The notes: generated by a model from the sequence alone, not told the origin. A stretch of DNA of 64,000 bases from Rhodospirillales bacterium (GCA_009839325.1 VXPW01000022.1:28038-92037), one strand, 5' to 3'; shown: positions 837-38,727, numbered from the stretch's first letter. Translations and numbers: made by a program.

Positions 837-2054
837 TTAGAAATTCTCTTGGAGCCAGCGGAACGCGGCGCGAAGGCCGCCGGCCCTGGGTGGTAACGCT
901 CGGGAAAGAAACTCGCGGGGGGGATCCTCGGCGTATCGAAGGAGACCCACGAGCACAGCGAATTCAGGCTTGCGAAGCGCATCCGGCAGACCCGGTACGC
1001 CCTCGGGCCGACCGAGGCGCACCCGCCGCCCGAGCACCTTGCTGGCGGCGTCAGCGAGCCCGCGGACCTGGCTGCCGCCGCCGGTCAGCACGACGACGCC
1101 GCCCATTTCTTGCGGGAAGCCGCTGCCAGCAAGCACGTCTGCGAGCTCCTCGAACATAGCCTTGGCTCGGGACGCGACGATCTGATTCACGGCCTCCGCA
1201 GGGATTTCTACCCGCTCGTCCTCGGTATCCGCTTCATGCGGCTGGACCGACACGGGTCCAAGCCCGTCTCCCAGAACCGTCGACGCGTGAAACTTCTTGA
1301 TCCGCGTCGCTTCCTGAAGGGACACACCAAGTCCGCGCGCGAGGTCACGGGTGAAGTAGTCCCCCCCGCCGGCGCAAGCCCACGTGTAGACCATTGCGTT
1401 GTCATGGAAGATCCCGAGTGACGTGCGGCTGGCGCCAATGTCGACCACCACGGAGCCAATGCGGCGTTCCTCCTCCGTCATGACCGCCAGACCGGCAGCC
1501 AGCGCAGGAAACACCAAAGCCTTGACCTCGATCTGGGCGTCGGCCAGACAGGTCTCCAAGTTCCAGCCGACCGATCGTTCGGCGTGCACGAGATGCACGT
1601 TTATCCGTAGGAGGCTGCCGACCATATCGACAGGGTCGGCCACCCGGCTGCCGTCAAGTTCGTAGCTGACCGGCAGCGCGTGGACGAGCTTGTTGGCACC
1701 AGAATCGTCGTCATTGGGATCATCCAGCCGCATCTCGCTGAAACTCTGCTCGGAGATCCGCCCCCCGTTGACCTGAAACGGTGGTAGTTCCCGGTGCGCA
1801 GAGGTCGGCCGGGCGCAGGGCAAGGTCGCGATGACCTGGGTGATCCGACCGTCGGCCATTTCCTCGGCCCGGCGAACCGCCTGACGAATCGCCGTGGGCA
1901 ACGCGTACATGTCGGTCACCACCCCGTTGTCGAAACCTTCGGAGCGGGTATGTCCGCTGCCGATCACGGTCAGCGTTCGTCCGGGCTCCCGCGCGGCAAT
2001 CAAGCAGCAGATTTTCTCTGCCCCGACATCAAGCACCGAATAGACGTCCGTCAC
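837..2054 (-). CDS. ftsA: Cell division protein FtsA (actin-like ATPase)
   Basis: ORF 837..2162(-). Actin-fold phosphate motifs are present (VLDVGAEKICCLIA, VVDIGASRTSLGIF, VVLTGGGSQVRGL). The ORF-track start overlaps ftsQ by 105 nt. GTG at 2054 (VTDVYSVLDVGAEK), 2 nt after the ftsQ stop, is the more likely start. Confidence 0.85.
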   Translation of the reverse strand: MTDVYSVLDVGAEKICCLIAAREPGRTLTVIGSGHTRSEGFDNGVVTDMYALPTAIRQAVRRAEEMADGRITQVIATLPCARPTSAHRELPPFQVNGGRISEQSFSEMRLDDPNDDDSGANKLVHALPVSYELDGSRVADPVDMVGSLLRINVHLVHAERSVGWNLETCLADAQIEVKALVFPALAAGLAVMTEEERRIGSVVVDIGASRTSLGIFHDNAMVYTWACAGGGDYFTRDLARGLGVSLQEATRIKKFHASTVLGDGLGPVSVQPHEADTEDERVEIPAEAVNQIVASRAKAMFEELADVLAGSGFPQEMGGVVVLTGGGSQVRGLADAASKVLGRRVRLGRPEGVPGLPDALRKPEFAVLVGLLRYAEDPPREFLSRALPPRAGGLRAAFRWLQENF

Positions 2055-30314: not shown

Positions 30315-30633
30315 TCCAACCATCATCAACATCACGATCTTTGTCCTGGCCGTGTTCGTCGGTTACTACGTCGTGTGGTCCGTGACGCCGGCGCTGCACA
30401 CCCCGCTGATGTCGGTGACCAATGCCATCTCCGGGATCATTGTGGTTGGAGCCCTCATTGCGCTGGGGATCGCTCCTGACGAAGACGAGGGCGCGGCGAG
30501 TTCACTTTCGACCGCACAGTGGCTGGGCGTCGTGGCCACTGGCCTGGCAGCCGTCAACATCTTCGGCGGTTTCATCGTCACGCAGCGGATGCTGGGCATG
30601 TTCCGGCGCAAGGAACCGCGGGGCCGCTCGTGA
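30307..30633 (+). CDS. pntAB: NAD(P) transhydrogenase subunit alpha, part 2 (membrane)
   Basis: ORF 30292..30633(+). It is a small three-TM protein ([24 protein letters not shown]). The likely start ATG 30307 overlaps the end of pntAA. Confidence 0.85.
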
Positions 30634-32018
30634 CCGCCGATGTCGCTGCCCTGCTCTACCTGGGAGCAGCGGTCTGCTTCATTCTCGCCCTGAAGGGGCT
30701 GTCGTCGCCCGAAAGCGCGCGGCGCGGAAACCTGTTCGGCATGGCCGGCATGGCCATCGCCGTCATCACCACACTTTTGCAGCCCGGCATGAGCCAGCTG
30801 GGCTGGACGGCGGTGGCTGGCGGATGCGGGGCCGTAGTCGGTACGGCGATCGCGCTCCGCATCGAAATGAAGGCGATGCCGCAGCTCGTGGCGGCATTCC
30901 ACAGCCTCGTCGGAATCGCGGCCGTGCTGGTCGCGTGGGCGGCTCTGTTCGCACCCGATGCGTACGGAATCGGTTCCGCGGGGTCCATCCACCTTGCCAG
31001 CCGGGTCGAAATGGCGCTCGGGGTCGTCATCGGAGCGGTGACATTCACCGGCTCCGTAGTGGCCTTTCTCAAGCTTCAAGGGCTGGTCAGCGGCTCGCCG
31101 ACGGTATTCCCCCTGCAACATCCACTCAACCTGCTTCTCGGGATCGCGATCATCGCCCTGATTGCGCTGTTTGTCGGCGACGAGAACGTGGTCTGGTTCG
31201 GCGTCATGACCGGCCTGGCCCTGGCCATCGGCGTCCTGTTGATCATTCCGATTGGCGGCGCGGACATGCCAGTCGTGGTCTCCATGCTGAACTCGTACTC
31301 GGGCTGGGCGGCAGCGGGCATCGGCTTCACGCTGCAAAACACCGCGCTGATCATCGTCGGAGCGCTGGTCGGCAGTTCCGGGGCCATCCTGTCCTACATC
31401 ATGTGCCGGGCCATGAACCGGCCGTTCCTGTCTGTCATCCTGGGCGGGTTTGGCCAGGAGGGCGACGCGACCGCAGCTGATCAGGGCGACCGGTCGGCGA
31501 AGGGAGGCAACGCGGACGACGCCGCCTTCATCATGGGCAATGCCTCGGGTGTGATCATCGTGCCCGGGTACGGCATGGCTGTCGCGCAAGCCCAGCATGC
31601 GTTGCGTGAAATGGCGGACCTCTTGAAGGACAAGGGTGTCACCGTTCGCTATGCGATCCACCCCGTGGCCGGCCGGATGCCGGGGCACATGAACGTGCTG
31701 CTCGCAGAGGCCACCGTTCCCTACGAGGACGTGTTCGAGCTTGAAGAGATCAACAGCGATTTTTCGGCAACCGACGTCGCCTTCGTGATCGGCGCCAACG
31801 ACATCACCAATCCCGCTGCCCGAACCGATCCGAGCAGCCCCATTGCGGGCATGCCGATCCTGGACGTGGAGCAGTCGAAGACCGTGCTGTTCGTGAAGCG
31901 GAGCCTGGCCCCCGGCTACGCCGGAATCGACAACGCCGTCTTCTACGCTGACAACACGTTGATGCTGTTCGGGGACGCCAAGAAGATGGTCGAGGAAATC
32001 GTCCGGGCGCTCCGCTAG
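30630..32018 (+). CDS. pntB: NAD(P) transhydrogenase subunit beta
   Basis: ORF 30519..32018(+), trimmed to GTG 30630 (GTGA overlap with the pntAB stop). The N-terminal half is polytopic. The C-terminal NADP(H) domain contains [15 protein letters not shown] and NVLLAEA. Confidence 0.9.
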
Positions 32019-32027
32019 ATCAAGCGA

Positions 32028-32819
32028 TCACCAGACATTCCGCAGGTCGCGAAGCGCCAGAAAGACCGCTTCCTCATCGAGGCCGGTCGCCGATCCGGCT
32101 TCTCCGTCGAGCAATCGGGCCATCACTTCCGGCTGGTCAAGGCGCAGGAAAACGTTGATCTCCCGTTCGAGACCGAGACTGGTGGGAACGGCCTTATGGG
32201 GATCTCGTCCACGTACTTCCTTAAGCAAGGACTGCGCCCGCACGTTGCCGGGTTCGCGGTCGAGCGTGAAACCGAGGTTGTGCTCCAGGTAATCGTGTCC
32301 CGGATACACGGTCACGTCGTCGGACAGCTTCGCGATGATCGAGCGAAATGTTCGATACAGCTCCTTGGGATGGCCGCCATTGTGGCAATTGCCGGCACCA
32401 GCGTTGAACAGGGTATCGCCGGAGAAAAGCGACGGTTGGTCTGCATGTGCGAGAAGGCAGACATGACTCATCGTGTGGCCGGGCGTATCCAGCGCTTCAA
32501 GCTCCACGGTTCGGCCGACCTGGATGGAATCCCCCGCCTTGAGCGCCACATCGATGCCTTCGATGGAAGCTCCGGCGCCTGCATGGGCATATAGCGTGGC
32601 CCCGGTGGCCTCGCGCATGCGCGCGTTGCCCCCGGTGTGGTCCAGGTGCTCATGCGTATTGACGAATTTCGTAATGGTCCAACCGCGGCGTTCAGCCTCG
32701 GCCAGGCAGAGGTCTGCCGCCAACGGATCCACGGCGAGCGCTTCGCCGGTTTCTTCGCACGCGATCAGGTAGTTGAAATTGCGATAGTCATTGTTGACGT
32801 AGATTTGTGCGACCTGCAT
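32028..32819 (-). CDS. gloB: Hydroxyacylglutathione hydrolase (metallo-beta-lactamase fold)
   Basis: ORF 32028..32876(-). It has the MBL motif NTHEHLDHTGG and begins YVNNDYRNFNYLIACEETGEALAVDP. The likely start is ATG 32819. Confidence 0.85.
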   Translation of the reverse strand: MQVAQIYVNNDYRNFNYLIACEETGEALAVDPLAADLCLAEAERRGWTITKFVNTHEHLDHTGGNARMREATGATLYAHAGAGASIEGIDVALKAGDSIQVGRTVELEALDTPGHTMSHVCLLAHADQPSLFSGDTLFNAGAGNCHNGGHPKELYRTFRSIIAKLSDDVTVYPGHDYLEHNLGFTLDREPGNVRAQSLLKEVRGRDPHKAVPTSLGLEREINVFLRLDQPEVMARLLDGEAGSATGLDEEAVFLALRDLRNVW

Positions 32820-33021: not shown

Positions 33022-33588
33022 ATGCGTATCAAGGGAAACGAAGCCGGTCCCGGCATGGTGATTGAGCACCTAGGCAGCATCTGGCGCGTGGTACGGAAGC
33101 AGGCAGTCCGGACAGGCAAGGGCGGCGCCTACGCTCAGCTGGAACTGCGCAACCTCGAAAACGGCAGCAAGTTGAACGAGCGGTTTCGCGCGGCGGAAAA
33201 CCTGGAACGGCTGTACATCGAAGGCCGCTCATATCAGTACCTTTTTGGCAACGGGAGCACCGTCACGCTCATGGACACGACAACCTATGACCAGTCGGAG
33301 TTTCCCGCGGCCATGGTCGGTGACGCCCTGCCTTTCTTGCAGGACGGCATGGATGTCACGGTCGAGTACGCGGGCGACAAGCCGGTAGCGATCCGGCTCC
33401 CGGACACGGCGGTAGCGGTAGTCATGGAGACCGAAGCCGTTGTCAAGGGCCAGACCGCCTCGAGTTCATTCAAACCTGCCGTGCTTGACAACGGTGTTCG
33501 GACCATGGTGCCGCCGCACGTGGAAACCGGCACCCGCGTCGTGGTCAACACGCTCGACGGGGCTTACGTAGAACGAGCCAAGTCGTAG
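33022..33588 (+). CDS. efp: Elongation factor P
   Basis: ORF 33022..33588(+), 188 aa. It has the typical EF-P N-terminus and loop (GMVIEHLGSIWRVVRKQAVRTGKGGAYAQLELRNLENG). Confidence 0.95.
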   Translation: MRIKGNEAGPGMVIEHLGSIWRVVRKQAVRTGKGGAYAQLELRNLENGSKLNERFRAAENLERLYIEGRSYQYLFGNGSTVTLMDTTTYDQSEFPAAMVGDALPFLQDGMDVTVEYAGDKPVAIRLPDTAVAVVMETEAVVKGQTASSSFKPAVLDNGVRTMVPPHVETGTRVVVNTLDGAYVERAKS

Positions 33589-33606
33589 GACGCGTGGCCG
33601 CCAGCC

Positions 33607-34407
33607 GTGCCCTACCCGACCGCCATCATCAACGTCATGTCGGGTGCCGCCGAGAAGGCGGCCCGCCCGCTACGCCGTGACTTCGGCGAAATCGAAAATC
33701 TCCAGGTGTCCCTCAAGGGGCCCGACAACTTCGTTACATCCGCGGACATACGAACCCAGGAAATCTTGCACCGCGAACTGTCGCGGGCTCGGCCCGGCTA
33801 CGGTTTCCTCATGGAGGAAGGCCTGGAGGAAGCGGGCGACGGTGAGCACCGGTGGATCGTCGACCCCGTCGACGGAACCCTAAATTTCCTGCGAGGGATA
33901 CCGCACTTCGCGATTTCGATCGCCCTGGAACGAGCGGGCACGATCGTCGGTGCATTCGTACTCGATCCCATCAAGCACGAAGCCTACTGGGCGGAAAAAG
34001 GCCGCGGCGCGTACGTGAACGACCGGCGCCTCCGCATCACGCCGCGCTCCACCCTCGACGGAGCGGTCATCGCACTCGGTCTTCCGCACAGGAGTCGCGG
34101 AGCACATGACCTGCATCTTTCCCGCCAGCGTCGGATCATGCAGAGAGTAGCCGGGCTTCGCCGGTTCGGTGCCGCTGCGCTCGACTTGTGCTACGTGGCT
34201 TCCGGCCGCGTCGACGGGTACTGGGAAACCGGCCTGAACCCTTGGGACATCGCAGGCGGCATGCTGTGTGTGACCGAAGCAGGCGGTTCAGTCGTCGGGC
34301 TGCGCAGGAATTCCTGTCCGCTGATCACGGGAGATGTGGTGGCTGGTACTCCCGACATCGCGATCGCCCTTCAAGACTGCTTGGCGGAGGCTGACCAACA
34401 AGTCTGA
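33607..34407 (+). CDS. suhB: Inositol monophosphatase family protein (SuhB-like)
   Basis: ORF 33607..34407(+), GTG start. IMPase motifs are present (WIVDPVDGTLNFLRGIPHFAISIAL, WDIAGG). Confidence 0.85.
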   Translation: MPYPTAIINVMSGAAEKAARPLRRDFGEIENLQVSLKGPDNFVTSADIRTQEILHRELSRARPGYGFLMEEGLEEAGDGEHRWIVDPVDGTLNFLRGIPHFAISIALERAGTIVGAFVLDPIKHEAYWAEKGRGAYVNDRRLRITPRSTLDGAVIALGLPHRSRGAHDLHLSRQRRIMQRVAGLRRFGAAALDLCYVASGRVDGYWETGLNPWDIAGGMLCVTEAGGSVVGLRRNSCPLITGDVVAGTPDIAIALQDCLAEADQQV

Positions 34408-34767
34408 CGATGACACCAAGCGCGCAGGGGTTCAGGCCGACCGCATCCGCCCCGGAATACCGGGTCGATGGACGTCAGACGGGGGGCCGCGGCGGCGATC
34501 CAGGAAGAGTTGTCTCGCCGCCCCCTCGGCACCGGCCATCAGCGGCGCTTCCATCGGACAAATCATGCCGCCGACAGATCCCGCTCAGCTTGATCTTTCC
34601 AAATTTTTCTGCCATTTCGTCAGGTACTGTTCGCGTTGGACATGCTGGGCCGATCGCGGCCGCGCGCGCCATCTGGCAGCGAGACTGTTGTCCGCCAGAT
34701 GTGTCCCGCCTCATTCGCGGGTCGACCGCTGTCGGGTCGGCCTCAGCCCAACTAGCGGGAATCAACC

Positions 34768-35982
34768 GTGCATAGTCCCCACCGATTCCTGATTCGCATG
34801 GTCGTGTTCGTCGTGGTGTCGGGCGGCCTTGCGTCGCTGCTGCTGCCGACGCTCAGGGAGGCGTTTAACGCCAATCCAGCGCTCAACGGGCTCATTGCAG
34901 GCGTGCTGGTTATCGGAATCGCGTACTCATTTCGCCAGGTCCTGGCGCTGGTTCCTGAAATCCGTTGGCTGGAGCGCTACGCATCCGGCATGAGTGTCAG
35001 CATCGCCAACGCACGGCCGCCAAATCTGCTTGCCCCGATTGCGCGCACGTTTACCGAACAGACCAAGACTTCGCGACCGCTGATCTCTGCGCTCTCGATG
35101 CGCTCGCTGCTTGACCAGGTCAACTTCCGGTTGGACGAGACCCGCGACATTTCCCGCTACATGATCGGGCTGTTGATCTTCCTGGGGTTGTTGGGGACGT
35201 TCTGGGGGCTACTCCAGACGGTGAGCTCGTTCGGCGCCGTCATCGGTAATCTCTCGATCAGTGAAGGCGGAGACGTCGCGTCGATCTTCGGATCATTGAA
35301 GGCGGGGTTGACCGAGCCTCTGGCCGGCATGGGTACTGCGTTCAGTTCGTCGCTGTTCGGACTCGCGGGCTCACTGGTCCTTGGTTTCCTCGACCTGCAG
35401 GTTGCACAGGCGCAGAATCGCTTCTACCTGGATCTTGAAGAGTGGCTTGCTCGCCGGGCGCACGTTTCTGCAGGGAGCGGCAGCGAATTGGAGCTGGGAC
35501 ACACTCCGGTTCCTGTCTACGTGCAGGCGCTGCTAGAGCAAACTGCAGAAAGCATCGATGAACTCCAGAAAGCGCTGGTCAGGGGAGAGAATGAACGTCG
35601 CAACGTCAGCGAGTCGATGTCCTCCATCGCCACCCAGATTGCGGCCCTCGGAGATCAGCTGCGAAGCGATCAATCGTCGGTCGTTCGGCAGATCGAACGC
35701 ATCGCTGACACCGGCGGCAATCTTGACGAGCACTCCTTGGCGCATCTGCGTAGCGTGGATTCCAACCTCAAGCGCCTGGTCGAAGCGAACGCCACCGGTC
35801 AGGAGGCTTTTCTCCAAGGGGTACGCGGCGAAATCAAGCTGCTCGCACGCACCCTGAGTACTTCCGTGCCGGAGTCCAAACCGACCAGGGCTACTTCGAA
35901 AACGACGCGACGCACTTCCTCGCCAGCAGCCAAGCCCGAGTCGAAGTCGCGCAGTACCGATCAGGCGCGGTCCAAGCGCTGA
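34768..35982 (+). CDS. MotA/TolQ/ExbB-family proton-channel protein with long C-terminal cytoplasmic coiled-coil/basic tail
   Basis: ORF 34768..35982(+), 404 aa. It has four predicted TM helices (residues about 8-27, 41-62, 131-152, 186-209). The channel signature is YMIGLLIFLGLLGTFWGLLQTV ... LAGMGTAFSSSLFGLAGSLVLGF. Residues about 210-365 are heptad-like, and the last roughly 40 residues are rich in S/T/K/R. The start is GTG 34768 or ATG 34798. Confidence 0.8.
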   Translation: MHSPHRFLIRMVVFVVVSGGLASLLLPTLREAFNANPALNGLIAGVLVIGIAYSFRQVLALVPEIRWLERYASGMSVSIANARPPNLLAPIARTFTEQTKTSRPLISALSMRSLLDQVNFRLDETRDISRYMIGLLIFLGLLGTFWGLLQTVSSFGAVIGNLSISEGGDVASIFGSLKAGLTEPLAGMGTAFSSSLFGLAGSLVLGFLDLQVAQAQNRFYLDLEEWLARRAHVSAGSGSELELGHTPVPVYVQALLEQTAESIDELQKALVRGENERRNVSESMSSIATQIAALGDQLRSDQSSVVRQIERIADTGGNLDEHSLAHLRSVDSNLKRLVEANATGQEAFLQGVRGEIKLLARTLSTSVPESKPTRATSKTTRRTSSPAAKPESKSRSTDQARSKR

Positions 35983-35991
35983 GCCTGCGGC

Positions 35992-38727
35992 GTGCCAACG
36001 CGACGCCAATCTCCCAACATTTGGCCGGGCTTTGTCGACGGTATCTCGACATTACTGCTCGTCCTCATTTTTCTACTTGCGATCTACGTCCTATCCGAGT
36101 TTGTGCTGGGGTTGCTGCTAAAGGGGCGGGACGCGGAACTGCAGTCTTTGACCTCCCAGATGGACGCGCTCACGGCGCAACTTGCCCGGGAGGAAACCCA
36201 GAACGCCGAATTGTCCGAGAATGTCCTCGATCTCACCCAATCGCTCAATGACTCCAAGGCACAGGTCAGCAATCTGCGCGGAGCGAACGTCCGCCTGAGC
36301 GATGAAGTCAGACTCCTCACCGAGTCGCTTCAGGCCGCTGAAGCCCTCGGGCAAGACCTAGAGACGAGAAACGAACAACTGACTCTCCGGGTCCGCGAAC
36401 TCACGCAGTCGCTCGCGGCAGCCGAAACCCTCGCGGCAAACCGACGGGCCCAGAATGACGCCCTCGCGGCAGATGTCCGACGACTCACGCAGCTGGTACA
36501 GGAAACCGAGACGCTCGCTGCAGATCTGAAGAGCCAGAACGATTCGCTTTCCGAAGATGTGACGCAACTCACGCAGAAATTGGCGACCGCGCAGACCCGC
36601 GGCGATGACCTCCAGGCCCGGAATCAGGCCCTCGACACCGACGTTCAGCGGCTGACACAGGACCTGGCGACAGCGCACACCCGCGGCAATGACCTCCAGG
36701 CCCGGAATCGGGCCCTCGATGCCGACGTTCAGCGATTGACGCAAGACCTCGCGACGGCCCAGACCAGGGGCGATGACCTTCAGACCCGGGGCGAGACTCT
36801 CGATGCGCAGGTCCGACAGCTCACACAGGAACTGGCGGCGGCGCGGACGCGCGGCGACGAACTGCAGACAGAAAGCGATTCGCTCGATGCCGAAGTCCGG
36901 CGGTTGGCACAAGCGCTACTGAGCGCCGAGACCCGTGGTGACGACCTTCAGGACCAGAACGAAGCCCTTGTTGCGGACGTTCGGCAGCTCGCACAGTCAC
37001 TTGAAGTGGCCGAAACCCGCGGCAGCGAACTTCGGGACGAGAACGAGGGGCTCAACGCCAATATCCGGCAGTTGACCGCTGCGCTGGCAGCAGCACAGGA
37101 CCACGGCGACGAGTTGCAGAACACAAACGAGCTGCTGGCTCGCGACATCGAGCAACTTCGGCGCGCCCTGGAAACGGCCAACACGCACGGCGAGGACCTG
37201 CAGGCGCGGAATCAATCACTCGAGGACAACGTCAGGGAGCTTACGGAGGCTTTCGCCGCGGCCGAGACCCGCGGCAACGACCTGCAAGCAGAAAACGAAG
37301 ACCTCCACGCCAGCATCCAGAGACTGGCGCAGGCTCTGGCCGCAGCGGAAACTCGCGGCGACGATCTCCAGACGGAAAACGAAGGCCTCAATGCCGACAT
37401 CACACGTCTGTCGCAGGCCCTCGCCGCCGCGGAGACCCGTGGCAATGACCTGCAGGCCGCGAATGAAACTCTCGACATCGACATCCAGCGGTTGTCGCGC
37501 GCTCTGGCCGAAACCCGGAGTCGCGGAGACGAGCTCCGGACCCAGAACGAATCGCTGTCCGCCGAACTTCTGGAACTCACGCGGGCACTTGAGATTGCAG
37601 AGGCTCGCAGCAGTGAACTTGGGGCCGAGAACGATGTGCTGAGTGCAGATTTTCAGGAACTCACGCTCTCGCTCGAGGCCGCCGAAGCCCTGGGATTGGA
37701 CCTCCAGACGACGAACGAGCAATTGACCACCGACCTCCAGCAACTTACCCGGGAACTTGAAGAAGCGGGCACCTTGGAAGCCGGCTTGCAGACACGTAAC
37801 CGGGACCTGTCATCCGAGGTCAGGACGCTGCGGCGGTCGCTCGGGGAGGCGCAGGCACAGGAATCAGAACTGAAGGACGAAATCGAACGGCTGCGTGGCA
37901 GCGAGCGGGCACTTCGTGCGAACCTCAGCCGCGTTCGGTCTTCGGAGCAGGGCCTGTCTGACCAAGCCCGAAATCTGGAACTCGACAAGGAACAGCTGGA
38001 AGAACGACTGGCCGAACTCGCGGCGGCGGCGGCAGCAGCCCGAACCGACCTGCTGCAGACGGAAGCAGACCTGGAACAGGAGCGCGCGCTTTCAGTAGCA
38101 GCAAGGGAGCAAGCGACCTTGCTGAACCGCCAGCTGGCCGACGTACGCGCCAGACTGGATGAACTCGGACGGCTTCTGGACGCAGCCGAGGCCGACCGGG
38201 AAGCCAAGGGAATCCAGATTGTCGAACTCGGCAAACGCCTCAATGCCGCCCTAGCCACCCGGGTCAGTGAGCTGGCACGCTACCGGTCCGAGTTCTTCGG
38301 TCGCCTCCGCGACATCCTTGGCGATCGGTCGGATGTGAGGACCGTAGGCGATCGCTTCATCTTTCAGTCCGAAGTGTTGTTCGCCAGCGGTTCCGCGGAA
38401 ATCGGGTCGAACGGTCGGCGCGAAATCACCGAGGTCTCGGACGCGTTGAAGGTCCTCGCCGAGGAAATTCCGGACGACGTACCCTGGGTTCTTCAAATCG
38501 AGGGACATACCGACACTGACCCGATTGCCACCGACCAATTCCCCTCCAATTGGGAGTTGTCCGTCGCACGGGCCACTGCGGTCGCCCGTATCCTCCTCGA
38601 CAACGGGATGCCTCCCGAGAGGCTCTCGATTGCGGGTTTCGCGGAATTCCAACCGATTGATCCGGGAACCAATCCGGCGGCACTCCGTCGTAACCGACGG
38701 ATCGAACTCAAACTTACTAGGCCGTGA
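35992..38727 (+). CDS. MotB/OmpA-family peptidoglycan-anchored protein with giant periplasmic coiled-coil repeat region
   Basis: ORF 35992..38727(+), 911 aa, with a GTG start 9 nt after the upstream stop. The N-terminus is a MotB/TolR-type TM helix with an embedded Asp (NIWPGFVDGISTLLLVLIFLL). Residues 53-668 are 28-residue repeats. The C-terminal OmpA_C-like domain contains VLFASGSAEI, IEGHTDTDPI, NWELSVARA and NRRIELKL. Confidence 0.8.
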   Translation: MPTRRQSPNIWPGFVDGISTLLLVLIFLLAIYVLSEFVLGLLLKGRDAELQSLTSQMDALTAQLAREETQNAELSENVLDLTQSLNDSKAQVSNLRGANVRLSDEVRLLTESLQAAEALGQDLETRNEQLTLRVRELTQSLAAAETLAANRRAQNDALAADVRRLTQLVQETETLAADLKSQNDSLSEDVTQLTQKLATAQTRGDDLQARNQALDTDVQRLTQDLATAHTRGNDLQARNRALDADVQRLTQDLATAQTRGDDLQTRGETLDAQVRQLTQELAAARTRGDELQTESDSLDAEVRRLAQALLSAETRGDDLQDQNEALVADVRQLAQSLEVAETRGSELRDENEGLNANIRQLTAALAAAQDHGDELQNTNELLARDIEQLRRALETANTHGEDLQARNQSLEDNVRELTEAFAAAETRGNDLQAENEDLHASIQRLAQALAAAETRGDDLQTENEGLNADITRLSQALAAAETRGNDLQAANETLDIDIQRLSRALAETRSRGDELRTQNESLSAELLELTRALEIAEARSSELGAENDVLSADFQELTLSLEAAEALGLDLQTTNEQLTTDLQQLTRELEEAGTLEAGLQTRNRDLSSEVRTLRRSLGEAQAQESELKDEIERLRGSERALRANLSRVRSSEQGLSDQARNLELDKEQLEERLAELAAAAAAARTDLLQTEADLEQERALSVAAREQATLLNRQLADVRARLDELGRLLDAAEADREAKGIQIVELGKRLNAALATRVSELARYRSEFFGRLRDILGDRSDVRTVGDRFIFQSEVLFASGSAEIGSNGRREITEVSDALKVLAEEIPDDVPWVLQIEGHTDTDPIATDQFPSNWELSVARATAVARILLDNGMPPERLSIAGFAEFQPIDPGTNPAALRRNRRIELKLTRP
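36148..37995 (+). repeat. In-frame tandem array of about 22 x 84 bp (28-residue) repeats inside the MotB/OmpA-like gene
   Basis: I split the protein by hand into 22 consecutive 28-residue units starting at L53, with no indels. I checked the phase at nucleotide level for units starting at 36568, 37324 and 37744. The approximate consensus is L-T/A-Q-x-L-A-x-A-E-T-R-G-D/N-D-L-Q-x-x-N-E-x-L-x-A-D-V/I-Q/R-R. Confidence 0.85.

What the first reader, a model, noticed from the sequence alone, without database searches (positions are those of the whole stretch)
36148..37995. About 22 perfectly in-register 28-residue (84-bp) repeats, giving a periplasmic coiled coil far longer than the periplasm is wide
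Residues 53-668 of the MotB/OmpA-like protein split into 22 consecutive 28-residue units (four heptads each) with no insertion or deletion. I verified the phase at nucleotide level at 36568, 37324 and 37744.

Central units share the consensus L-T-Q-x-L-A-x-A-E-T-R-G-D/N-D-L-Q-x-x-N-E-x-L-x-A-D-V-Q-R. Heptad-like sequence continues for about 100 more residues before the OmpA domain.

Using the established rise of about 0.15 nm per residue in a coiled coil, a continuous rod would be on the order of 90 nm. That is several times the usual periplasmic width, so the region must fold back, lie parallel to the sacculus, or not be a simple rod. A Gly is conserved at position 12 of most central units (TRGDDL) and could be a periodic hinge.

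Strict preservation of a 28-residue register suggests selection on length or periodicity, as in a ruler, spring or lattice.
Basis: partly seen in the sequence, partly recalled or inferred. Interest (0 to 1): 0.7.

Follow-up and report, generated by a model that had tools for sequence, protein, structure and literature searches.

The report
Over-long periplasmic coiled-coil stalk, repeat-built
A wall-binding, MotB-like membrane protein of an uncultured alphaproteobacterium has had its periplasmic coiled-coil stalk stretched about five-fold, to roughly 100 nm, by tandem copying of an 84-bp module; this gives a natural length series for an uncharacterised but widespread membrane-motor family.

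Summary
ORF 35992..38727 (911 aa) has a MotB-type transmembrane helix, 22 in-register 28-residue units (36148..37995), about 100 more heptad residues and a MotB-type OmpA domain. Identity at lag 28 is 0.47, against at most 0.15 in shuffles. One heptad frame runs unbroken from about residue 25 to 760.

The array is not an assembly artefact: seven independent assemblies of a sister strain and two related MAGs also give 911 aa. It is under purifying selection (dN/dS 0.11-0.19).

The protein belongs to NCBIfam PRK09039. It always follows an ExbB/TolQ/ZorA-like gene, in a conserved efp-IMPase neighbourhood, so it is neither a flagellar nor a Zorya system.

The ruler reading is only partly supported.
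- Sister species carry 20, 21, 22, 24 or 26 units, with independent near-identical amplifications.
- The nearest short relative is 368 aa, and other lineages expanded with other unit sizes.
- What is conserved family-wide is heptad phase. The distance from the TM motif to the pre-OmpA motif falls in classes 4, 4+3 or 4+4 mod 7 in about 95% of proteins.
- The core code L-L-A-G-L-N-L-V is also conserved.

Most likely this is a parallel dimeric stalk lengthened by unit-wise recombination, lying obliquely as a leash. Its function is unknown.

The parts
34768..35982 (+). A-subunit gene (404 aa). It is ExbB/TolQ/ZorA/MotA-like, with membrane helices and a cytoplasmic two-helix tail. Its stop lies 9 nt before the B gene.
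   Evidence: Pfam MotA_ExbB scores 19.9 bits, below the gathering score of 22.9. PADLOC ZorA1 gives 1e-12. The top 50 Foldseek PDB matches of the AF2 model are all ExbB, TolQ, ZorA, MotA or PomA. The gene lies immediately upstream of the B gene in 73/80 related loci. More than 8000 homologues of 374-404 aa were found.
35992..38727 (+). B-subunit gene (911 aa), a member of NCBIfam PRK09039 'peptidoglycan -binding protein'.
   Evidence: NF006543 scores 382.4 bits against a cutoff of 305, but the profile is only 350 positions long and matches residues 612-909. dN/dS over the whole gene is 0.09-0.14 against three relatives.
36028..36120 (+). Transmembrane helix (residues 13-43). It carries the invariant W11-P-G-F-V-D16 motif; Asp16 is at 36037..36039.
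   Evidence: AF2 predicts a helix at 13-43. W11, P12, G13, F14, V15 and D16 are invariant in 42 aligned family members. The codon was read directly.
36148..37995 (+). Array of 22 in-register 84-bp (28-aa, four-heptad) units, residues 53-668.
36568..37575 (+). Core of the array: units 6-17 (residues 193-528). These are the strongly related copies with consensus LTQALAAAETRGDDLQTxNExLDADVQR and core code L-L-A-G-L-N-L-V. This is the zone where relatives gain and lose units.
   Evidence: Profile scores are 39-51 bits. Unit-level alignments place all gains and losses here. dN/dS is 0.12-0.24.
37996..38319 (+). Distal non-repeat coiled coil (residues 669-776). It is conserved across the family and leads into the Y-R-S-E-F-F motif. 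The array's heptad phase continues to about residue 760.
   Evidence: The heptad phase continues to about residue 760. dN/dS is 0-0.05. The region is orthologous to the coil of the short form P0241.
38332..38718 (+). MotB-type OmpA-like peptidoglycan-binding domain (residues 781-909).
   Evidence: PF00691 gives 8.6e-16. PDB matches are MotS 9ljk at 4.7e-15, then MotB and PomB. AF2 pLDDT is 80-95.

Best explanation
The array is the periplasmic stalk of the B subunit of a conserved alphaproteobacterial two-gene membrane complex. The A subunit is ExbB/TolQ/ZorA-like and the B subunit is MotB-like, so the pair is presumably a 5:2 ion-driven complex.

The stalk is most likely a parallel, in-register two-stranded coiled coil. 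It keeps one heptad frame from the transmembrane helix to the peptidoglycan-binding domain.

In this lineage the stalk grew from about 140 residues to about 710 by tandem amplification of an 84-bp module of four heptads. Unequal recombination or slippage between modules adds or removes whole 28-residue units, which accounts for the perfect register. Purifying selection removes anything that breaks the heptad frame or the eight-position core code L-L-A-G-L-N-L-V. In that code the buried Asn, and the Ala-Gly notch, would keep the two chains in register and the rod pliable.

At about 105 nm the stalk is 5-10 times the membrane-to-wall gap. It therefore cannot stand upright. It must lie obliquely or nearly parallel to the membrane, as a long flexible leash between the membrane complex and the sacculus.

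Shown: the anatomy, family membership, copy-number dynamics, selection and phase rule. Inferred: dimer state, parallel orientation, periplasmic topology, geometry and the leash role. The physiological function of the family is unknown.
For: - **Anatomy and periodicity:**
- **Helical content:** AF2 predicts helix over residues 13-776.
- **Family:** NF006543 scores above its cutoff.
- **MotB-type PG-binding domain:**
- **A subunit:** its fold matches only 5:2-motor A subunits.
- **Operon and synteny:** the A gene lies immediately upstream in 73/80 loci. efp is found upstream in 51/80 loci and the IMPase gene in 60/80.
- **Copy number:** relatives have 20, 21, 22, 24 and 26 units, always differing by whole units. 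L009 has 10 units at 96-100% DNA identity, L007 has 5 at 98-100%, and L006 has 4 at about 90%.
- **Nearest short form:** 368 aa, with the same TM helix and distal coil.
- **Selection:** dN/dS in the repeats is 0.11-0.19 at dS 0.18-0.26, with no indel.
- **Core code:** all eight a/d positions are the most conserved columns in 85 distinct units. G12 and N19 are each present in 79/85.
- **Phase rule:** the TM-to-YRSEFF distance mod 7 falls in classes 4, 0 or 1 in 170/179 proteins. An independent set gives 67/70, with 15/26 unique lengths in class 4 (binomial p = 3e-7, not corrected for phylogeny).
- **Dimer preference (established coiled-coil rules, from my own knowledge):** Leu at d, beta-branched residues or Asn at a, and B subunits that are dimers in solved 5:2 motors.
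Against: - No oligomer model or experiment is available. The only structure model is a monomer (pLDDT 66, pTM 0.30) that folds back on itself.
- No paper on the family's function was found.
- The e/g positions show no strong charge complementarity that would fix a parallel orientation.
- The width of the periplasm in this uncultured organism is unknown.
- The mod-7 statistics are not corrected for phylogeny.
- Near-identical repeats in L007 and L009 could be miscounted if those assemblies are not from long reads.
Confidence: 0.6

Rival explanations
1. Extra length is functionally neutral. The stalk only needs to exceed a minimum of about 20 nm and keep its heptad frame. The 84-bp array is then a runaway, slippage-prone coding minisatellite that drifts in copy number without adaptive meaning.
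For: - Copy number differs among close relatives, and very recent amplifications are seen.
- Independent expansions with other unit sizes occur in other lineages.
- Central units are the least constrained part of the protein: dN/dS is 0.12-0.24 against 0.05-0.09 for the OmpA domain.
- The A subunit does not change with stalk length.
Against: - All eight clade genomes keep 20-26 units. None has collapsed back towards the 368-aa form.
- The core code, including Gly and Asn, is about 93% conserved.
- The count stayed at 22 across lineages separated by dS of about 0.2.
- Rhodobacterales also maintain stalks of about 400 residues.
Confidence: 0.3
2. The region is not an extended rod. It folds back at some Gly sites into an antiparallel multi-helix bundle about 24 nm long, which fits across the periplasm.
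For: The AF2 monomer breaks the helix at residues 117-122, 285-297, 455-469, 543-553 and 723-740. Every break is at a Gly, and the resulting segments are about 160 residues, or about 24 nm.
Against: - The breaks have pLDDT below 50 and pTM is 0.30. Fold-back is a common artefact when AF2 models a coiled coil as a monomer (my own knowledge).
- Adding 2-4 units to one central segment in L006 and L009, or removing units in L004 and L007, would unbalance an antiparallel bundle.
- Family-wide mod-7 quantisation of the whole TM-to-OmpA distance is not expected if loops interrupt the coil.
- An Asn ladder at a positions is typical of parallel dimers (established knowledge).
Confidence: 0.12
3. The 28-residue period itself is functional. 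The rod lies along the inner face of the sacculus, or forms a lattice with neighbouring rods, and presents a conserved A-x-x-R-G-D-D notch every 4.16 nm as a periodic binding site. Alternatively, the stalk acts as a torsion spring for the rotary complex.
For: - The R11-G12-D13-D14 notch is highly conserved in central units.
- Heptad phase between the TM helix and the PG-binding domain is conserved family-wide, which suggests angular coupling matters.
- 28 x 0.148 nm = 4.16 nm is close to four peptidoglycan disaccharides. That dimension is from memory and was not tested.
Against: - The unit type is confined to this clade.
- Other long-stalk lineages use 14-, 35-, 56-, 63- or 70-residue periods, or no detectable repeat at all (for example P0038, 934 aa).
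- No binding or structural data exist.
Confidence: 0.1
4. The repeat count is an assembly artefact, or the ORF is not a real gene.
For: Some short-read contigs end inside the array: L001, L088 and L089.
Against: - Seven independent assemblies from different samples and pipelines, plus L002 and L003, give the same 911-aa ORF.
- dN/dS is well below 1.
- The window's units are only 39-86% identical at DNA level, so collapse is unlikely.
- GC content is uniform.
Confidence: 0.02

Closest known systems
Flagellar stator B subunits MotB / PomB / MotS
   Same: Both have a single N-terminal TM helix with a conserved Asp and a C-terminal OmpA-like PG-binding domain; the best PDB sequence matches fall here. 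Both are encoded directly after an A-subunit gene.
   Different: - All MotB-family equivalog HMMs score far below their cutoffs: 68 bits against 301, and 101 against 283.
- MotB has a plug and a flexible linker, not a heptad-continuous coil of 140-830 residues (MotB anatomy from PMC11946911).
- The neighbourhood here is efp / IMPase / pccBA, not flagellar genes.
Zorya ZorAB (5:2 PG-binding motor)
   Same: The A subunit resembles ZorA (PADLOC ZorA1 at 1e-12; Foldseek hits 8vvn and 8qyd) and has a helical cytoplasmic tail. The B subunit has a MotB-type PG-binding domain. A very long coiled coil is attached to the motor.
   Different: - In Zorya the coil of about 70 nm is the pentameric ZorA tail in the cytoplasm, and the ZorB PG-binding domain is fused to the TM helix without a linker (PMC11946911).
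- Here the long coil is on the B subunit, in the periplasm.
- No ZorC/D/E-like genes are adjacent.
- NCBIfam ZorA models score 16 bits against cutoffs of 500-750.
- Housekeeping synteny is conserved across Alphaproteobacteria.
NCBIfam PRK09039 'peptidoglycan -binding protein' (NF006542-NF006546)
   Same: NF006543 scores above its curated cutoff. The protein shares the TM motif, the distal coil, the YRSEFF motif and the OmpA domain with hundreds of family members.
   Different: Typical members are 320-630 aa, and the profiles are 342-627 positions long. This clade is 855-1023 aa because of a clade-specific 28-residue module.
Braun lipoprotein Lpp and TolA domain II (periplasmic helical spacers)
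   Same: These are helical periplasmic elements whose length relates to envelope spacing. Over-long Lpp+21 is accommodated by tilting (PMC8824477).
   Different: Lpp is a short trimer linking the OM to PG, and about +21 residues is the longest extension that still supported close to normal growth. Here a presumed dimer links the IM to PG and tolerates hundreds of extra residues. The TolA comparison is from my own knowledge.
Copy-number-variable coiled-coil repeat proteins (streptococcal M proteins, trimeric autotransporter stalks)
   Same: Both have tandem in-frame repeats that are multiples of the heptad, with copy number differing between strains or species through recombination (from my own knowledge).
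   Different: Those proteins are surface-exposed adhesins or immune-evasion proteins under diversifying selection. This one is an internal periplasmic stalk of a housekeeping membrane complex under purifying selection.

Membership tests
NCBIfam PRK09039 peptidoglycan-binding protein (NF006543) | Whole-protein HMM score at or above the curated cutoff | tested here: met
   382.4 bits against a cutoff of 305. Sibling models NF006542, NF006544, NF006545 and NF006546 score below their cutoffs.
NCBIfam PRK09039 peptidoglycan-binding protein (NF006543) | Architecture: N-terminal TM helix with the W-P-G-F-V-D motif, a coiled coil, the Y-R-S-E-F-F motif and a C-terminal OmpA domain | tested here: met
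   These are invariant columns in 42 aligned members. The motifs were found in 179 + 70 family proteins.
5:2 ion-driven motor superfamily (MotAB / ExbBD / TolQR / ZorAB) | A subunit with the ExbB/TolQ/MotA membrane fold | tested here: met
   The top 50 Foldseek PDB matches are all A subunits, but the matches are weak: best E = 2e-3, with TM-scores normalised by target length of 0.23-0.56 (0.45 for the top hit, 0.56 at best), from a model with pLDDT 70. Pfam MotA_ExbB scores below its gathering score.
5:2 ion-driven motor superfamily (MotAB / ExbBD / TolQR / ZorAB) | B subunit with a single TM helix carrying a conserved acidic residue, encoded adjacent to the A gene | tested here: met
   Asp16 is invariant. 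The A gene lies directly upstream in 73/80 loci, with a 9-nt gap in the window.
5:2 ion-driven motor superfamily (MotAB / ExbBD / TolQR / ZorAB) | A5B2 stoichiometry and ion-driven rotation | not testable with these tools
   This needs multimer modelling, cryo-EM or biochemistry.
Flagellar stator MotB | Score above the cutoff of a MotB/MotS/MotD/PomB equivalog model | tested here: not met
   NF006541 scores 101 bits against 283, NF005382 84 against 264, and NF005831 68 against 301.
Flagellar stator MotB | Flagellar gene context | tested here: not met
   Neighbours are gloB, efp, IMPase, pccB and pccA. The same synteny is seen across Alphaproteobacteria. Flagellar genes elsewhere in the genome were not examined.
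Zorya anti-phage system | ZorA and ZorB model scores, and presence of ZorC/D or ZorE/F/G partner genes | tested here: not met
   NCBIfam ZorA models score 16 bits against cutoffs of 500-750. The PADLOC ZorB hits cover only the OmpA-proximal C-terminus: residues 744-906 for ZorB3, and 789-909 or 834-908 for the ZorB1 models. No partner genes are adjacent.
Canonical heptad coiled coil (parallel dimer) | Unbroken 7-residue hydrophobic a/d pattern in a helical, Pro-free segment | tested here: met
   One phase holds from about residue 25 to 760. The FFT peaks at 3.5 and 2.33 residues, and there is no Pro between residues 12 and 827. AF2 predicts helix.
Canonical heptad coiled coil (parallel dimer) | Oligomer state and strand orientation | not testable with these tools
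   Only a monomer prediction was available. The dimer and parallel assignments are inferred from Leu at d, Val/Ile/Asn at a, and the B2 stoichiometry of solved 5:2 motors.

The most novel reading that the evidence does not exclude
The family is a distinct functional class of PG-anchored 5:2 motor. In it, the B-subunit stalk is a phase-locked mechanical element, such as a torsion shaft, a spring or a wall-tracking rod. This would explain why heptad phase between the TM helix and the PG-binding domain is conserved while length is free. In this clade the 4.16-nm module, with its conserved Arg-Gly-Asp-Asp notch, would be a periodic contact site that lays a rod of about 100 nm along the sacculus or into a periplasmic lattice.
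Probability: 0.1. Interest if true: 0.85.

Novelty: new variant of a known kind. Interest (0 to 1): 0.5.

Why it matters
The A/B pair is conserved next to efp across Alphaproteobacteria. The A subunit has thousands of homologues, yet I found no paper on the pair's function.

This clade gives a natural length series of 20-26 modules, and the family as a whole spans 320-1023 aa. The family also obeys a clear rule: heptad phase is conserved and length is not.

That makes a concrete question testable. Does a PG-anchored stator-like complex need a rigid, phase-defined link to the wall, and how does the envelope house a rod 5-10 times longer than the membrane-to-wall gap?

The L-L-A-G-L-N-L-V core code is also a ready-made case for studying how very long homodimeric coils keep register and flexibility.

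Tried and rejected
- **TRF on DNA** found only two 2.5-copy arrays, because the units are 39-86% identical. The periodicity had to be shown at protein level.
- **The first homologue search** with the full protein returned only C-terminal matches (at most 54% identity over 24% of the query) and missed the close orthologues. These were recovered through genome contigs and through the neighbouring A protein.
- **The metagenome-contig scan** found no clade member; the best match was 59% identical (L156). It was used only to replicate the mod-7 test.
- **Literature.** 'PRK09039' gave two irrelevant papers. Searches for MotA/OmpA/coiled-coil in alphaproteobacteria, Zorya homologues and periplasmic coiled-coil repeats found nothing on this family. 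Two of the eight search calls failed on term syntax. The S. meliloti Rgs protein lead was checked and dropped, as the text has no MotA or OmpA terms. The stator-evolution preprint only mentions unnamed 'GIT' clades of unknown function.
- **Flagellar MotB and Zorya membership** were rejected on HMM cutoffs and gene context.
- **Beta-layer (MATKDD-type) reading of 'AETRGDDL'** was considered from memory and rejected. Beta-layers need a 2- or 6-residue insertion into the heptads, and this unit is exactly 4 x 7 with no phase break.
- **Apolipoprotein-like 11/22-mer amphipathic helices** were rejected. The period is 3.50, not 3.67, and there is no Pro punctuation.
- **The AF2 monomer fold-back** is not trusted: pTM is 0.30 and pLDDT at the turns is below 50.
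- **A sequence-profile search of the A subunit against the PDB** gave only coiled-coil noise. The fold search was needed.
- **Other scans** were uninformative. Rfam found nothing. The promoter and terminator scan was at background. There was no compositional sign of horizontal transfer.
Full report
**1. The observation**

The window encodes a 911-aa ORF at 35992..38727 (+). Cutting residues 53-668 (36148..37995) into 28-residue blocks gives 22 blocks, each starting with Leu.

Self-identity is 0.47 at lag 28, 0.44 at lag 56 and 0.42 at lag 84. At other multiples of 7 it is about 0.12-0.16. The maximum at any lag in 200 shuffles was 0.152.

A profile built from units 6-17 finds 18 units, all in phase (units 3-20). 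Units 1, 2, 21 and 22 share only the heptad/Leu frame. At DNA level adjacent units are 39-86% identical, which is why TRF reports only two short arrays.

A simple a/d scoring finds one absolute heptad phase for all 28-residue windows starting at residues 25-732. There is no proline between residues 12 and 827. The hydrophobicity spectrum peaks at 3.50 and 2.33 residues.

**2. Real gene, real count**

The neighbouring A protein (99% identical cluster P0121) led to nine places in independent assemblies from ENA, NCBI and Logan samples. Seven carry a complete downstream gene, and all seven are 911 aa. They differ from the window by 212-214 nucleotides and 50-52 residues, with no indel. Two further contigs end inside the array. 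Two species-level MAGs (L002, L003) are also 911 aa.

Nei-Gojobori dN/dS against three relatives, at dS 0.18-0.26:

| Region | dN/dS |
|---|---|
| Repeat array | 0.11-0.19 |
| Central units | 0.12-0.24 |
| OmpA domain | 0.05-0.09 |
| Distal coil | 0-0.05 |
| A gene | 0.03 |

GC content is uniform. The array is translated, constrained, and not an assembly artefact.

**3. What the protein is**

The C-terminus is an OmpA-family domain (PF00691, 8.6e-16). Its best solved relatives are MotS, MotB and PomB. The N-terminus has one TM helix carrying W-P-G-F-V-D16, which is invariant in 42 aligned family members.

NCBIfam NF006543 (PRK09039.1-2, 'peptidoglycan -binding protein') scores 382 bits against a cutoff of 305, but the profile is only 350 positions long. 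All MotB, MotS and MotD equivalogs are far below their cutoffs.

The gene 9 nt upstream (34768..35982, 404 aa) is weakly MotA_ExbB by Pfam and ZorA-like by PADLOC. It has more than 8000 homologues of about 374-404 aa. Its AF2 model (pLDDT 70) matches only ExbB, TolQ, ZorA, MotA and PomA chains among the top 50 PDB hits.

In 80 related genomic loci the A gene lies immediately upstream in 73. efp is found upstream in 51 and an inositol-monophosphatase gene in 60. In the window the downstream genes are pccB and pccA.

This is therefore a conserved housekeeping A/B pair of the 5:2-motor superfamily. It is neither a flagellar stator nor a Zorya defence island. I found no paper on its function.

**4. 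Comparison among relatives**

A genome scan with the C-terminal 300 residues found eight close relatives (78-97% identity), all unnamed alphaproteobacterial MAGs. Three are chromosome-scale single contigs. Measured from the TM motif to the stop codon:

| Locus | Length (aa) | Units |
|---|---|---|
| L007 | 846 | 20 |
| L004, L005 | 874 | 21 |
| window, L002, L003 | 902 | 22 |
| L006 | 958 | 24 |
| L009 | 1014 | 26 |

These lengths differ by exact multiples of 28.

The five N-terminal units, about six C-terminal units and the distal coil are orthologous across species. All gains and losses lie in the centre. L009 has 10 consecutive units at 96-100% DNA identity, L007 has 5 at 98-100%, and L006 has 4 at about 90%. 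These are independent recent amplifications.

The module type is confined to this clade. The nearest representative outside the clade (P0241, 67% identical at the C-terminus, with the same TM helix and distal coil) is only 368 aa. Of the best 150 cluster representatives, only 10 exceed 600 aa.

Other lineages lengthened the stalk independently, with other unit sizes. Examples are 14- and 28-mers in L055, 56-mers in P0311, 35- and 70-mers in P0001 and P0002, and about 400-residue stalks in Rhodobacterales. P0038 (934 aa) has no strong repeat at all.

**5. What is actually conserved**

Over 85 distinct central units from the eight orthologues, the eight a/d positions are the most conserved columns:

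| Position | Residue | Units (of 85) |
|---|---|---|
| 1 | L | 83 |
| 5 | L | 80 |
| 8 | A | 76 |
| 12 | G | 79 |
| 15 | L | 82 |
| 19 | N | 79 |
| 22 | L | 85 |
| 26 | V/I/L | 81 |

Gly12 and Asn19 are therefore core positions, as constrained as the leucines.

Across the whole family, I measured the distance from W-P-G-F-V-D to the pre-OmpA Y-R-S-E-F-F motif, which ranges from 172 to 865 residues. In 179 proteins it is 4 mod 7 in 109, 0 in 32 and 1 in 29. The classes n, n+3 and n+4 thus cover 95%. An independent set of 70 metagenome proteins gives 67/70 in the same classes, with 15 of 26 unique lengths in class 4 (binomial p = 3e-7, not corrected for phylogeny). The window's distance is 753, which is 4 mod 7.

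By established coiled-coil knowledge, +4 and +3 are the classical stutter and stammer. The family thus conserves the heptad phase between the membrane helix and the wall-binding domain, while length varies six-fold.

**6. Structure**

The AF2 monomer, run with a 42-sequence alignment, is helical from residue 13 to 776 and gives a confident OmpA domain. It folds the helix back at residues 117-122, 285-297, 455-469, 543-553 and 723-740. All these sites are at Gly, all have pLDDT below 50, and pTM is 0.30. I take this as support for helicity, and weak support for Gly sites being the weakest points. I do not take it as evidence for a compact fold.

Three points argue for a continuous parallel homodimer:
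- unit-wise gains in one central zone, which only a self-pairing architecture tolerates;
- the mod-7 rule;
- Leu at d with Val/Ile/Asn at a, together with the B2 stoichiometry of solved 5:2 motors.

This remains an inference.

**7. Geometry**

At 0.148 nm per residue the array alone is about 91 nm, and the whole coil about 105 nm. Published E. coli figures put the IM-PG gap at about 9 nm (PMC11946911). An alternative estimate of about 20 nm follows from an IM-OM distance of 30-32 nm minus an OM-PG distance of about 10 nm (PMC8824477).

The shortest family stalks (about 137-146 residues, 20-22 nm) fit an upright rod. Stalks in this clade are 5-10 times too long, so they must lie at a shallow angle, much as over-long Lpp+21 tilts rather than stretching the envelope.

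**8. Interpretation**

The ruler idea (selection on length or on the 28-residue period) does not hold.

Whole-unit changes are what recombination between 84-bp repeats produces, and copy number drifts among sister species. Selection acts on heptad phase and on the core code.

My best reading is a flexible, parallel dimeric leash between a 5:2-type membrane complex and the sacculus, enlarged by module amplification (confidence 0.6 overall; the leash role itself is weaker, about 0.4). Whether the extra length is adaptive or nearly neutral is open (rival at 0.3).

A more exotic reading is not excluded: a phase-locked torsion element, or a wall-tracking rod with a 4.16-nm contact period (about 0.1).

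**9. Verdict**

This is a real and striking feature, and a new variant of a known but uncharacterised family (PRK09039). It gives a clean natural length series and a testable phase rule, but no known function. Interest: 0.5.

Noticed in passing
window 32018..32028; L081-L085 at about 1245..1875: Sister-strain assemblies carry a PIN-domain gene plus a small RHH/FitA-like gene (a toxin-antitoxin-like pair) in an insertion of about 1.2 kb between pntB and the gloB-like gene. In the window pntB ends at 32018 and the gloB-like ORF ends at 32028, so the pair is absent.
   Followed up: partly
window 33022..35982 and 80 related loci: The gene order efp - inositol monophosphatase - A subunit - B subunit is conserved across many alphaproteobacterial orders. 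efp is present in 51/80 loci, the IMPase gene in 60/80 and the A gene in 73/80. This is an unexplained linkage of an envelope complex to efp.
   Followed up: partly
window 35863..35979 (A subunit residues 366-404): There is a clade-specific, basic, Ser/Thr/Pro/Lys-rich C-terminal extension of the A subunit (SVPESKPTRATSKTTRRTSSPAAKPESKSRSTDQARSKR). It is predicted disordered (pLDDT below 50). Relatives carry unrelated Pro/Ala-rich tails of very different lengths.
   Followed up: no
window 36358..36912 (-), 37216..37743 (-), 37653..38258 (-): Long antisense ORFs of 175-201 aa lie inside the repeat and coil region. They look like by-products of GC-rich, stop-poor repetitive coding sequence and have no independent support.
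   Followed up: no
window 34408..34767: A 360-bp gap lies between the IMPase gene and the A-subunit gene. It is overlapped by a 152-aa ORF (34334..34792) that has no Pfam match and poor conservation beyond close relatives (41-52%). No Rfam family and no sigma-70-like promoter was found. A regulatory region is possible.
   Followed up: partly
P0311 (926 aa) and L055 (555-aa stalk form): These are independent stalk expansions in other lineages. P0311 has 56-residue repeats and an extra C-terminal domain of about 260 residues after the OmpA domain. L055 has 14- and 28-residue repeats and a poly-Ala run.
   Followed up: partly
L001 (start), L088 and L089 (ends): These short-read contigs terminate inside the repeat array. 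The locus is evidently a common assembly break point, and full-length long forms may be under-represented in protein databases. The first protein search returned none of the close orthologues.
   Followed up: partly
window 30366..31688 (-) versus 30519..32018 (+): A 440-aa minus-strand ORF with no Pfam hit overlaps a 499-aa plus-strand ORF. The plus-strand ORF sits where relatives have pntB, so the minus-strand ORF is probably spurious. This was not checked further.
   Followed up: no
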